From the IMG/VR virus record IMGVR_UViG_3300008964_000003: DNA of 20,000 bases. One strand, written 5' to 3'. The stretch is from an uncultured virus (IMG/VR IMGVR_UViG_3300008964_000003). Lineage: Duplodnaviria > Heunggongvirae > Uroviricota > Caudoviricetes. A model generated the notes under the pieces. That model saw nothing but the letters and a program-made list of their open reading frames with translations, was not told the origin of the DNA and searched no databases. Positions 5,462 through 7,718 of this stretch are shown here, in pieces. The position numbers and the translations under genes are program-made. Within the stretch, counting starts at the first letter, position 1; each line of letters starts with the position of its first letter.

Positions 5462-5995
5462 ATGAAACTATTGATTGTCGGACATGCTCGACACGGTAAA
5501 GATACTGTAGCAGAATACTTTGAATCAAAATACGGATTGCAGTTTGCATCTTCAAGTATGCATAATGCAGAGCATACTGTATTTCCTGTATTGGCACCAC
5601 TATATGGTTATAAGACTGTACAAGAATGTTTTGAAGATCGTGGTAACCATAGATCAGAATGGTATGATCTTATTGCTGCACGCTGTAAAGACGATCCTGC
5701 TACCATTGGCCGTGAGATCTTTGAGATTTCTGACATCTATGCAGGTCTTCGTAATAAACGTGAATTCCATGGTATCAAGAATGCTGGCTTGATTGATTGT
5801 GCTATTTGGGTAGATCGCTCAGACCATCTTCCACCTGAAGATAAGTCGTCTATGAGTCTAGAACCATGGATGACTGATTATGTTATTGATAATAATGGCA
5901 CTCTAGAACAATTGTATCAAGCCATTGATGCTTTGTATTACACTCTAGCCTATCGTTTTGACGGCTTAGGTCATGAATATGAAATGTATCCTTAA
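5462..5995 (+). CDS. Deoxynucleoside monophosphate kinase (T4 gp1-like)
   Basis: N-terminal G-HARH-GKDT P-loop, G.R...E motif, DYVIDNNGTLEQL C-terminal motif. Confidence 0.7.
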   Translation: MKLLIVGHARHGKDTVAEYFESKYGLQFASSSMHNAEHTVFPVLAPLYGYKTVQECFEDRGNHRSEWYDLIAARCKDDPATIGREIFEISDIYAGLRNKREFHGIKNAGLIDCAIWVDRSDHLPPEDKSSMSLEPWMTDYVIDNNGTLEQLYQAIDALYYTLAYRFDGLGHEYEMYP

Positions 5996-6227
5996 AAAAG
6001 CTATTAATTGGTGGCGGATGACTGACCACAAGAATAAGATGGAACAGCGTCAAAAAGAGGTAGAATCTATCTATGAAAAAACCAATAATATACGGAAAAG
6101 AATCTCCGCTCTTAGAAGCAGCCATGGATGGGATAAGAAACCCACTGAAGCTGTACCGGTACCGGAATCCAAACCGTACGTCAAACCCGGACTCGAGGAT
6201 ATCAAAGCAAAGCTTCGTAAAAAGTGA
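5973..6227 (+). CDS. Hypothetical basic protein
   Basis: ORF filling the gap before the tmRNA promoter; start position uncertain. Confidence 0.55.
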   Translation: MNMKCILKKAINWWRMTDHKNKMEQRQKEVESIYEKTNNIRKRISALRSSHGWDKKPTEAVPVPESKPYVKPGLEDIKAKLRKK

Positions 6228-6262
6228 TTTAAAAGTCACAGTATTAAAACTATAATATAGGG

Positions 6263-6292
6263 GTTTACTTAATCCATCCTTTATGTTAATAT
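6263..6292 (+). promoter_or_regulatory. Promoter for tmRNA precursor
   Basis: GTTTACT (-35, TTTACT 6264-6269), 17-bp spacer, TGt-TAATAT (-10 at 6287-6292). Predicted +1 near 6298-6300, the start of the acceptor piece. Confidence 0.7.
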
Positions 6293-6373
6293 ATAACCTG
6301 TAAACGTTGAAGCAACGTGGACACATTCTGGACCTGGGGGCGGTACCCAGCGACTCCACCATAAGGATACACA

Positions 6374-6571
6374 ATGAAACAATATTCAAAAGAATATTTA
6401 GAGTTTGAACTGAAACACACTAAAGAGTTGGTAGAACTTCATCATAACACAAGAGATGAAGAATTGAGACTTCAAATTTTAGAAGTTAGAAAAACTCTTG
6501 AGCGTATCTTTTTGATGGGGTCGAAATTAGGATCGACAGGTGTGAAAGTGAAAGTGGAGTTTACCGGATGA
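6374..6571 (+). CDS. Putative small protein encoded in the tmRNA intervening segment, running into the coding piece
   Basis: AAGGA RBS 6 nt before the ATG; 47 stop-free codons in AT-rich spacer; charged amphipathic-helix composition; stop TGA 6569-6571 lies inside the tmRNA coding piece. Confidence 0.5.
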   Translation: MKQYSKEYLEFELKHTKELVELHHNTRDEELRLQILEVRKTLERIFLMGSKLGSTGVKVKVEFTG

Positions 6572-6598
6572 CTGCGTTATTGGTCAATTAAACTAAAT

Positions 6599-6643
6599 GC
6601 AAATGAAAATTTCGCACCTACAGGTTACGCCCTAGCGGCATAA
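6599..6643 (+). other. tmRNA proteolysis tag reading frame ANENFAPTGYALAA*
   Basis: GCA AAT GAA AAT TTC GCA CCT ACA GGT TAC GCC CTA GCG GCA TAA, an AN[D/E]NF...ALAA tag of the alphaproteobacterial type. Confidence 0.92.
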
Positions 6644-6713
6644 TGCTGGTGGGTATGAGCACCACCTAGAAACAGAACGGACTCGCAACAACTTTAATTT
6701 TATAGGACTAAAA

Positions 6714-7049
6714 ATGAAAAATATTCTCTTGGCAACAGCCGCAACATTCGCTCTTACAACTTCTGCATTTGCAGCTGATCTAGGCTATGCCGGTGACGTT
6801 GAATATGATATTGAAACAGAAACAGCTGCACTTGAATTTGGACCAGCACTTTCAATGGCCGGTTTCCTAGTTGAACCAAAAATGCACGCAGGTGCTACAT
6901 TTACAGACGGCGCAACAGTAAACTTTACTGGTGTATCTGCAAAAGCAACATACGGCGTAACTGCTAATGTTTCTGTATATGGTACAGTATCAGCTGACAA
7001 AGACTTTAAATACGACACAGCAACAGTTGGTGTTGGCTTTAACTTCTAA
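6714..7049 (+). CDS. Small outer-membrane beta-barrel/porin-like protein
   Basis: Sec signal peptide ending ..SAFA-A, alternating amphipathic beta strands, C-terminal VGVGFNF BAM beta-signal; AGGA RBS. Confidence 0.75.
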   Translation: MKNILLATAATFALTTSAFAADLGYAGDVEYDIETETAALEFGPALSMAGFLVEPKMHAGATFTDGATVNFTGVSAKATYGVTANVSVYGTVSADKDFKYDTATVGVGFNF

Positions 7050-7092
7050 TAACTGCCTTTGGCACAGGGATAGGCTATACGCCATCCGAATT

Positions 7093-7122
7093 AAAAGAGC
7101 GTCCTTGTGGCGCTCTTTTTTT
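7093..7122 (+). terminator. Rho-independent terminator
   Basis: AAAAGAGCG-tccttgtgg-CGCTCTTTT-TTT hairpin with U tract. Confidence 0.85.
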
Positions 7123-7123
7123 A

Positions 7124-7131
7124 CATAAATA
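7124..7131 (+). promoter_or_regulatory. Probable T4-type late promoter
   Basis: CATAAATA (one mismatch to TATAAATA), directly after the terminator and 30 nt upstream of the operon start; no -35 element. Confidence 0.55.
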
Positions 7132-7160
7132 TGAATGTTATTATATTATAGGACTATGCT

Positions 7161-7718
7161 ATGTTTAAAAAATTACTAATTGCAGTGCCATTGATTCTTG
7201 CTTACTCTTTAGCAGTTGCTGAACCAATTGTTACTGAATCCACAACTGATAGTACTGTTACTTCGAATTCGAATTCAACTACAACTGTCAAAACTGCACC
7301 ACCATCAGCAATTTCACCTTCGATCAATACATCGAATAGTGACACATGTACGATCGGTGTTTCAGGCGCGGTTCAAACACAAATTCTTGGTATCTCTGCT
7401 GGTAAAACAGTTCGTGATATGAATTGTGAACGACTCAAAAATGCAAAAACTTTATATGACATGGGCATGAAAGTTGCTGCCGTGTCTGTTATGTGTCAAG
7501 ATTCTAGAATCTTTGATGCTATGATGGATGCTGGCACACCTTGCCCATATGATGGAATGATTGGCGATGCTGCTAAGGAAGCTTGGAAACTAGATGAGGG
7601 TAAACAACCATCAAATGTAAAACGAAGCACTATTCTGAAAGATATGGATGAAGATGATAAAAGCACTCTTAAAGGTGCCGCTGGTGTTGGTGGCCTCTTA
7701 CTCTTATTGCTACTCTGA
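7161..7718 (+). CDS. Secreted Cys-containing protein with S/T-rich linker and hydrophobic C-terminal tail
   Basis: Signal peptide (..LAVA-E), Thr/Ser-rich stretch, four Cys, C-terminal GAAGVGGLLLLLLL. Confidence 0.8.
   Translation: MFKKLLIAVPLILAYSLAVAEPIVTESTTDSTVTSNSNSTTTVKTAPPSAISPSINTSNSDTCTIGVSGAVQTQILGISAGKTVRDMNCERLKNAKTLYDMGMKVAAVSVMCQDSRIFDAMMDAGTPCPYDGMIGDAAKEAWKLDEGKQPSNVKRSTILKDMDEDDKSTLKGAAGVGGLLLLLLL

What the first reader, a model, noticed from the sequence alone, without database searches (positions are those of the whole stretch)
6362..6571. Protein-coding ORF inside the intervening segment of a permuted tmRNA: a potential self-made non-stop mRNA circuit
Seen: the spacer between the CCA end (6361) and the mature 5' GGGG (6517) is 155 nt. 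It has an AAGGA RBS, an ATG at 6374 and an open frame of protein-like amphipathic-helix composition (MKQYSKEYLEFELKHTKELVELHHNTRDEELRLQILEVRKTLERIFL), and the only stop (6569-6571) lies inside the tmRNA coding piece. Known: permuted alphaproteobacterial tmRNA spacers are normally short non-coding linkers removed by RNase P and 3' processing; ArfA-type rescue factors are controlled by being made from non-stop mRNAs that tmRNA tags. Inference: RNase P cleavage at 6517 falls within codon 48 and would turn the excised spacer into a non-stop mRNA of 47 codons. The product would be tagged and degraded by the same tmRNA, while the 65-aa form would come only from unprocessed precursor. This could act as a sensor of trans-translation or RNase P activity during infection.
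Basis: partly seen in the sequence, partly recalled or inferred. Interest (0 to 1): 0.88.

Follow-up and report, generated by a model that had tools for sequence, protein, structure and literature searches.

The report
Stop-less gene inside phage tmRNA spacer
The spacer that is cut out when this aquatic phage's two-piece ribosome-rescue RNA (tmRNA) matures carries a real, conserved small-protein gene with no stop codon before the cut, but the spacer is a swappable slot for many small genes and the proposed self-sensing switch is possible, not shown.

Summary
In detail: permuted tmRNA, 155-nt spacer, ATG 6374, only stop at 6569-6571. The ORF is a real gene: dN/dS 0.14-0.15 against its two nearest alleles, a family of 35 protein records, a confident helical-hairpin model, no known family. 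In all 7 DNA alleles followed by a tmRNA 5' end it runs across the RNase P site, in two frames, in alpha- and beta-type tmRNAs; the tail varies, and 65 aa is this allele's quirk.

Against the sensor model: the 'RBS' is one arm of a stem that closes nearly all such spacers, so the excised spacer should initiate poorly. The spacer is an exchangeable cassette slot: 26 of 41 cargo families stop inside it, and frames at the junction look random. The fixed stem register can freeze the stop-less end. The protein resembles no rescue factor.

Best reading (0.62): accessory gene riding the tmRNA promoter, translated mainly on the nascent precursor, non-stop products being a by-product. Regulated non-stop circuit: 0.2. 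This scan reported the cargo habit before on other DNA; this family is new to it. My literature searches found no description.

The parts
6264..6292 (+). Candidate promoter (-35 TTTACT, 17 nt, -10 TAATAT after TG)
   Evidence: Read from the sequence. It matches 8 of 12 consensus bases, so the scan (threshold 9) did not list it. Relatives have TTGAC-N17-TATAAAT at this place. Likeness to T4 early promoters is recalled. Inferred.
6300..6361 (+). tmRNA acceptor piece (T-arm, 3' strand of acceptor stem, encoded CCA)
   Evidence: Rfam RF04321 alignment starts at 6300; ARAGORN
6362..6516 (+). Intervening segment = stem-closed cargo cassette, 155 nt
   Evidence: folds at -30 kcal/mol, z -3.05; same cassette in other tmRNA alleles
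6363..6370 (+). 5' arm of the closing stem, doubling as Shine-Dalgarno (AAGGA)
   Evidence: Paired in precursor and excised spacer, mostly open in a nascent transcript; a purine-rich 5' arm goes with an early start codon across 41 cargo families, p 2.5e-5
6374..6514 (+). Conserved 47-codon core of the small gene (helical hairpin, helices 6-26 and 29-46)
   Evidence: dN/dS 0.14-0.15 to nearest alleles; homologues; AlphaFold mean pLDDT 93.9
6504..6511 (+). 3' arm of the closing stem; also encodes residues 44-46
6513..6517 (+). TGAT leader and predicted RNase P site (6516/6517), inside codon 48
   Evidence: TGAT ends 206 of 235 viral spacers of 20 nt or more; cleavage by RNase P is inferred from tmRNA biology, not shown here
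6515..6571 (+). Unconserved read-through tail (codons 48-65 and stop), read from the tmRNA coding piece
   Evidence: Tail differs in every lineage
6517..6687 (+). tmRNA coding piece; tag frame 6599-6643 (ANENFAPTGYALAA, stop)
   Evidence: 3' end taken from the RF01849 match; an RNA-library contig matches 6526-6704 without differences

Best explanation
A T4-like aquatic phage uses the intervening segment of its permuted tmRNA gene as an exchangeable, stem-closed cargo cassette; here the cargo is a real gene for a 47-residue helical-hairpin accessory protein. SHOWN: cassette anatomy, selection on the protein, exchange of cargo between tmRNA alleles, no stop before the cut. INFERRED: the gene is transcribed from the tmRNA promoter. 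Ribosomes load mainly in the short time before the 3' stem arm is made and pairs with the Shine-Dalgarno. Most read to the first stop inside the still-uncut tmRNA and give core plus an arbitrary tail. Once the stem closes, RNase P and 3' processing release a spacer that initiates poorly. Ribosomes overtaken by the cut stall in codon 48 and are cleared by tmRNA with host SmpB; this trims output but is a by-product. The stop-less end persists because residues 42-46 are needed, they overlap the stem arm, and the arm-to-cut register is fixed by pairing. The protein most likely acts by helix packing on itself or on a host protein early in infection (weak inference; no target identified).
For: Selection: 7 of 24.9 synonymous against 5 of 98.1 non-synonymous sites differ from L128 (dN/dS 0.15, p 2.6e-3); 0.14 against L363 (p 2.6e-4); all 14 computable ratios of 15 pairs are below 1 (0.14-0.53), 10 of 15 with p<0.05. 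Slot: 152 of 179 unique viral spacers of 100 nt or more hold a filling ORF, against 32 on the reverse strand and 26+-4 in shuffles; cellular alphaproteobacterial spacers have median 28 nt, maximum 83 (114 of 120 measured). Exchange: the 7 nearest other tmRNA alleles (flank score 0.90-0.96) all carry different cargo; this cassette sits in alpha- and beta-type tmRNAs and in tandem remnants (L127, L361). Stem of 7 bp or more in 193 of 208 spacers against 50 when ends are swapped; register fixed in 197 of 200 clear cases, 8 unclear. Shine-Dalgarno unpaired probability about 0.01 or less over AGGA in the precursor, 0.19-0.91 in the nascent RNA. Stops: 26 of 41 credible families stop inside the spacer, 12 read through, 3 are mixed; junction frames 9:8:3, p 0.21.
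Against: This family never shows a stop before the cut: 0 of 7 DNA alleles, and none of 35 protein records ends at residue 46 or 47, across 43-64% identity and a change of frame. In this genome the 4 credible ORFs that abut ordinary tRNA genes all stop before the tRNA 5' end. A second family (L019, 7 sequences) also reads through in two frames. Translation, processing and their relative rates were not measured; folding predictions are equilibrium estimates.
Confidence: 0.62

Rival explanations
1. Selected non-stop circuit: RNase P cuts ahead of ribosomes that loaded co-transcriptionally, the 47-aa product is tagged and degraded, and it accumulates only when trans-translation (host SmpB, tmRNA, ClpXP) or RNase P is overloaded during infection.
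For: No stop before the cut in 7 of 7 alleles, two frames, alpha- and beta-type tmRNAs. 23 of 35 protein records have tails of the two tmRNA read-through types; 9 of 23 tails tested back-translate to a tmRNA 5' end at codon 48, most of them above the controls for their length. The conserved core ends just before the cut and the tail is free, as in arfA (PMC8012679, passages). No smpB in 5 phage records, one complete, so tagging would report on the host factor.
Against: No class-wide bias to read-through; stop status flips inside at least 2 cargo families. The 7 alleles amount to about two independent junction states, and the fixed register explains their persistence. The Shine-Dalgarno is paired in the excised spacer. 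No ArfA-like match, core net charge -4 to +5 across the family and -1 here. Nearest tmRNA alleles lack the gene. In L361 the gene has lost the tmRNA 5' end altogether.
Confidence: 0.2
2. The gene is selected only in other contexts or was translated in the past; in this cassette the stem keeps it silent, as reported for the S23p ORF in a 23S rRNA intervening sequence.
For: Start region buried in a stem; L486 has no purine-rich Shine-Dalgarno and L487 starts with TTG; S23p is reportedly not made in vivo (PMC4990558, abstract).
Against: Purifying selection between alleles that all lie in spacers; every DNA-backed member lies in a tmRNA spacer or a remnant of one; Shine-Dalgarno position tracks start position across families.
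Confidence: 0.1
3. Translation is the signal, not the protein: a ribosome that reads through the cut site melts the acceptor stem and delays tmRNA maturation, coupling it to translation status.
For: The frame crosses the acceptor stem's 5' strand in all 7 alleles; stops lie 9-55 nt or more inside the coding piece.
Against: Strong residue-level conservation of the core (14 invariant columns in 20 sequences) is not needed for such a role; most cargo families stop earlier and many spacers carry no ORF.
Confidence: 0.08

Closest known systems
Circularly permuted two-piece tmRNA genes (Rfam RF04321, RF01849; phage example: OM43 phage Melnitz, PMC9004378)
   Same: Acceptor piece, intervening segment, coding piece; G3-U70 pair, encoded CCA, tag ending in LAA. 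Two-piece tmRNAs are reported in about 50 aquatic phage genomes (PMC9004378, passages).
   Different: Spacer is 155 nt against a cellular median of 28, closed by a long stem and filled by a selected protein gene. The 2025 tmRNA database paper mentions a tRNA-Ala and a repeat inside spacers, no ORFs, in the parts read (PMC11915505).
arfA / brfA: genes expressed from non-stop mRNA and repressed by trans-translation
   Same: Conserved N-terminal part, unconserved tail beyond a predicted truncation point (PMC8012679, passages).
   Different: There the cut comes from a terminator or RNase III site and the product is a ribosome-rescue factor. Here it would come from tmRNA maturation itself, the product matches no rescue-factor model and has no basic tail, and regulation is untested.
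23S rRNA intervening sequences that carry the S23p ORF (PMC4990558)
   Same: An ORF inside a stem-closed piece that is excised from a stable-RNA precursor.
   Different: That element is 428 nt, cut by RNase III, with one protein family reportedly not made in vivo and decaying (abstract). Here the cargo is one of dozens of unrelated small genes and is under purifying selection.
Small accessory ORFs between tRNA genes of T4-like phages (recalled, not read)
   Same: Small unknown genes released from tRNA-like precursors and exchanged between phages.
   Different: Here the gene lies inside one RNA gene, its ends pair, and it has no stop of its own; the ORFs next to this phage's ordinary tRNAs do stop first.

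Membership tests
Permuted (two-piece) tmRNA gene | Acceptor piece with T-arm and CCA precedes the coding piece | tested here: met
   RF04321 97.8 bits (gathering 47), model positions 1-213
Permuted (two-piece) tmRNA gene | Alanine identity (G3-U70, discriminator A) in a 7-bp acceptor stem | tested here: met
   6517-6523 pairs with 6351-6357, G6519 with T6355
Permuted (two-piece) tmRNA gene | Tag frame ending in a hydrophobic Ala-Ala end and a stop | tested here: met
   ANENFAPTGYALAA, 6599-6643
Permuted (two-piece) tmRNA gene | Precursor is processed to two pieces and tags proteins in vivo | not testable with these tools
   Only assembled contigs of RNA runs were available; they show no ends
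arfA/brfA-type non-stop-regulated gene | mRNA is truncated inside the ORF before its stop | tested here: inconclusive
   Predicted RNase P site lies in codon 48 in 7 of 7 alleles; order of cutting and translation unknown; Shine-Dalgarno paired after cutting
arfA/brfA-type non-stop-regulated gene | Tail beyond the truncation is poorly conserved and dispensable | tested here: met
   Tails end at register 49-76 in different frames
arfA/brfA-type non-stop-regulated gene | Product is homologous to a rescue factor, with a basic C-terminal tail | tested here: not met
   No such Pfam model at E<=1 for 16 members, no NCBIfam match for 20 members; core net charge -1 here
arfA/brfA-type non-stop-regulated gene | Fold of a known rescue or translation factor | tested here: inconclusive
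   Generic helical hairpin; no Foldseek hit at E<=0.001, best VIA Z 6.0 (rmsd 3.6, 45 aligned)
arfA/brfA-type non-stop-regulated gene | Protein level rises when trans-translation fails | not testable with these tools
   Needs an experiment
S23p-type rRNA intervening sequence | ORF inside a stem-closed excised segment of a stable RNA | tested here: met
   (predicted stem with covariation between cassettes)
S23p-type rRNA intervening sequence | Located in 23S rRNA and encodes an S23p-family protein | tested here: not met
   Lies in tmRNA; no such Pfam match

The most novel reading that the evidence does not exclude
This gene family has been kept for a long time at RNase P sites (alpha- and beta-type tmRNAs, perhaps tRNAs too) because the maturation cut makes its message non-stop. 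The tmRNA would then, by its own maturation, create a substrate that it tags, and the 47-aa protein would appear only when host SmpB, proteases or RNase P are saturated in infection: a one-transcript feedback sensor of a type not described in the papers I could search.
Probability: 0.2. Interest if true: 0.87.

Novelty: new variant of a known kind. Interest (0 to 1): 0.6.

Why it matters
The 'discarded' spacer of phage two-piece tmRNA genes is a hidden gene slot: dozens of small-protein families, mostly with no database match (3 of 41 hit Pfam and 3 of 41 hit PHROGs at E<=0.001), sit inside a locus that annotation treats as one RNA gene. It suggests one reason why aquatic phages keep a tmRNA gene: a strong promoter with an exchangeable expression cassette. 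This family is a good test case of whether a tRNA-type maturation cut can regulate a protein through trans-translation, since a one-codon change separates the hypotheses.

Tried and rejected
RNA evidence: contigs of 4 metatranscriptome runs (of 24 listed) were laid on 5900-7200. One contig matches the coding piece (6526-6704) without differences; none covers 6384-6471. Contigs show no ends, strand or level, so the gap is no evidence.

Function of the protein: no Pfam match above cut-off (best E 0.039), no PHROG or NCBIfam family, no PDB sequence hit under E 0.38, no Foldseek hit at E<=0.001 in PDB or BFVD, best VIA Z 6.0, Atlas best score 0.77 among unnamed clusters and no named hit. A likeness to ribosomal protein uL29 that I recalled from memory found no support in the Pfam scan.

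tRNA-linked members: 12 of 35 protein records have other tails. By eye some read like tRNA 5' ends (P0017 like tRNA-Cys), but the back-translation test did not lift them clearly above controls, and two scans found no DNA for them. Left open.

No family member in INPHARED phages (2 queries; one E 0.8 chance hit) or plasmids; the window's DNA matched only 45-52 nt of tmRNA in 3 roseophages.

An alignment-wide RNA structure inside the ORF was not supported beyond the acceptor and closing stems. Assembly artefact for the tandem cassettes is unlikely but not excluded: two separate assemblies share the arrangement with different junctions. No Rfam family other than tmRNA or tRNA matched non-coding spacers of 20 loci tested. 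No complex prediction was run: no partner is implied by the data.

Full report
1. Observation. The window is part of a 77,472-base virus record, 37% complete, with a T4-type helicase, thymidylate synthase, dNMP kinase and endolysin upstream of the locus and 16 tRNA calls elsewhere. ARAGORN and Rfam call a permuted tmRNA. CCA ends at 6361, the coding piece starts at 6517, the spacer is 155 nt, ATG is at 6374 and the first stop at 6569-6571. Such a frame arises in 0.5% of shuffles.

2. The ORF is a gene. Close alleles with DNA are L127/L360, L128/L362, L361 and L363; distant ones are L485-L487. Over codons 2-42, which leaves out the stem arm, dN/dS is 0.15 against L128 (p 2.6e-3) and 0.14 against L363 (p 2.6e-4). 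All 14 computable ratios among 15 pairs are below 1, and 10 of 15 pairs reach p<0.05; the two other forward frames hold 4-9 stops in every allele. Profile searches gave 35 protein records at 43-100% identity. I left out 4: two long proteins matched by repeats (P0008, P0020), a cluster-mate with an unrelated name (P0031) and a longer form of P0017 (P0032). Several records are one gene with different starts, so they are not independent. AlphaFold gives a two-helix hairpin, mean pLDDT 93.9. No family or fold was assigned.

3. The spacer is a cassette slot. Of 179 spacers of 100 nt or more, 152 hold an ORF that fills them, against 32 on the reverse strand and 26+-4 in shuffles. Some cargo hits known domains (DUF6356, PGDYG); other spacers hold tRNA-like or unassigned structured RNA. 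Cellular alphaproteobacteria picked by one pattern have spacers of median 28 nt and at most 83 (114 of 120 measured). The 7 tmRNA alleles closest to the window's all carry other cargo, while this cargo occurs in alpha- and beta-type tmRNAs with different tags. In L127 and L361 it lies in tandem arrays of cassettes joined by bare acceptor-stem repeats, upstream of an intact tmRNA with another spacer. Exchange by recombination in the conserved flanks is inferred.

4. The 'RBS' is also a stem arm. 6363-6370 pairs with 6504-6511. A stem of 7 bp or more closes 193 of 208 spacers of 60 nt or more, against 50 (maximum 64) when ends are swapped between spacers. The register to the cut site is the same in 197 of 200 clear cases. 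The AAGGA is still probably a true Shine-Dalgarno: across 41 families a purine-rich 5' arm goes with a start within 15 nt (17, 2, 5, 17; p 2.5e-5; starts were chosen automatically). In folding predictions it is paired in the precursor and in the excised spacer and largely open before the 3' arm is made.

5. Is the missing stop selected? For: 7 of 7 alleles that are followed by a tmRNA 5' end have no stop before the cut. Four read one frame and three the other; the change came with 2-nt differences in both stem arms. Of 35 records, 6 and 17 have the two read-through tail types, 12 have other tails, and none ends at residue 46-47. Nine of 23 tails tested place a tmRNA 5' end at codon 48, most above length-matched controls. 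The 4 credible ORFs beside this phage's tRNA genes all stop first. Against: of 59 cargo families, 30 stop inside, 26 read through, 3 are mixed. After dropping 18 singletons with doubtful starts the figures are 26, 12 and 3 of 41 (one mixed pair, L016/L182, is doubtful). Families that reach the leader without a stop of their own fall into the stop frame and the two open frames 9:8:3, no different from chance (p 0.21). Stop status flips within at least two families. For this family, conserved residues run into the stem arm, the register is fixed and position -4 is T in 228 of 235 spacers, so few single changes can add a stop; the 7 alleles amount to about two junction states. The 65-aa length is incidental: one extra T skips the stop that gives 51 aa in the nearest alleles. 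In L361 the gene has lost its tmRNA 5' end and ends in promoter sequence.

6. Mechanism. Most likely (0.62) the phage expresses an accessory protein from the tmRNA promoter. Ribosomes load on the nascent RNA and mostly finish at a stop inside the uncut precursor; the stem then closes, shuts off initiation and presents the acceptor stem for processing; ribosomes overtaken by the cut are rescued and the product is tagged. That processing is slower than reading 47 codons is my assumption from general knowledge, not a result. No smpB was found in 5 phage records, one complete, so rescue needs the host factor. Rivals: a selected non-stop sensor (0.2), a silent gene (0.1), ribosome gating of tmRNA maturation (0.08).

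7. Known and new. It is a member of the permuted tmRNA class. It is laid out like arfA/brfA in having a conserved core and a free tail beyond a cut, but it is not a member: no homology, no basic tail, regulation untested. It resembles S23p-bearing rRNA spacers in anatomy only. Searches for ORFs in tmRNA spacers listed no paper that describes them; the library lacks most subscription journals. What I saw: PMC11915505 passages and the first of two parts of Results (supplements and the sequence database not examined, and they may hold such spacers); PMC9004378, PMC4131195, PMC8012679 and PMC3978253 passages; PMC4990558 abstract. Mao et al. 2009 and Keiler et al. 2000 were seen only as citations.

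8. Verdict. Real feature, new variant of a known kind, interest 0.6. The gene and the slot are solid. The circuit is unproven, but in this family the stop-less end is old rather than a recent accident, which makes it a good test case.

Noticed in passing
L127:2845-3600 and L361:180-860: Arrays of spacer cassettes, each closed by a bare acceptor-stem repeat and with repeated promoters, upstream of an intact tmRNA; one cassette is a tRNA-like RNA (Rfam tRNA 44.4 bits, no readable anticodon). Similar tandem cassettes in L341 (three), L290 and L345.
   Followed up: partly
L019:1047-1190 and relatives L222, L223, L228, L229, L234, L254: A very basic 48-aa cargo family that also reads through the cut in all 7 sequences, in two frames; no Pfam or PHROG match. 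Its basic end makes it a better candidate for a ribosome-binding, non-stop-regulated factor than the family studied here.
   Followed up: partly
L268, L269, L272, L289, L311, L322 (tmRNA spacers): One cargo family appears to start at ATA behind a GAGG motif in several members and at ATG in others, and has both stop-inside and read-through members.
   Followed up: no
L003, L004, L009, L025, L081, L105, L141, L192 (tmRNA spacers): Non-coding, hairpin-rich spacers of about 60-150 nt, some recurring in several phages, with no Rfam match besides tmRNA; possible unknown small RNAs released by tmRNA processing.
   Followed up: partly
P0014, P0017, P0024, P0028, P0030 (protein records): Family members whose tails read by eye like 5' ends of tRNA genes, which would place the cassette in front of tRNAs too; not confirmed, no DNA found.
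   Followed up: partly
window:6714-7049: 111-aa ORF with a signal-peptide-like start and a C-terminal Phe directly after the tmRNA; similar ORFs follow the tmRNA in L133, L135 and L136. No PHROG match. Looks like a small outer-membrane protein (inference).
   Followed up: no
window:7161-9833: Run of five ORFs with signal-peptide-like starts and weak or no PHROG matches; may be the curli-like module reported for related marine myophages (PMC9004378), not tested.
   Followed up: no
G000:C1:58835-58928: A tRNA called Ile(TAT) at 94 nt, longer than usual; similar calls in L128 and L486.
   Followed up: no
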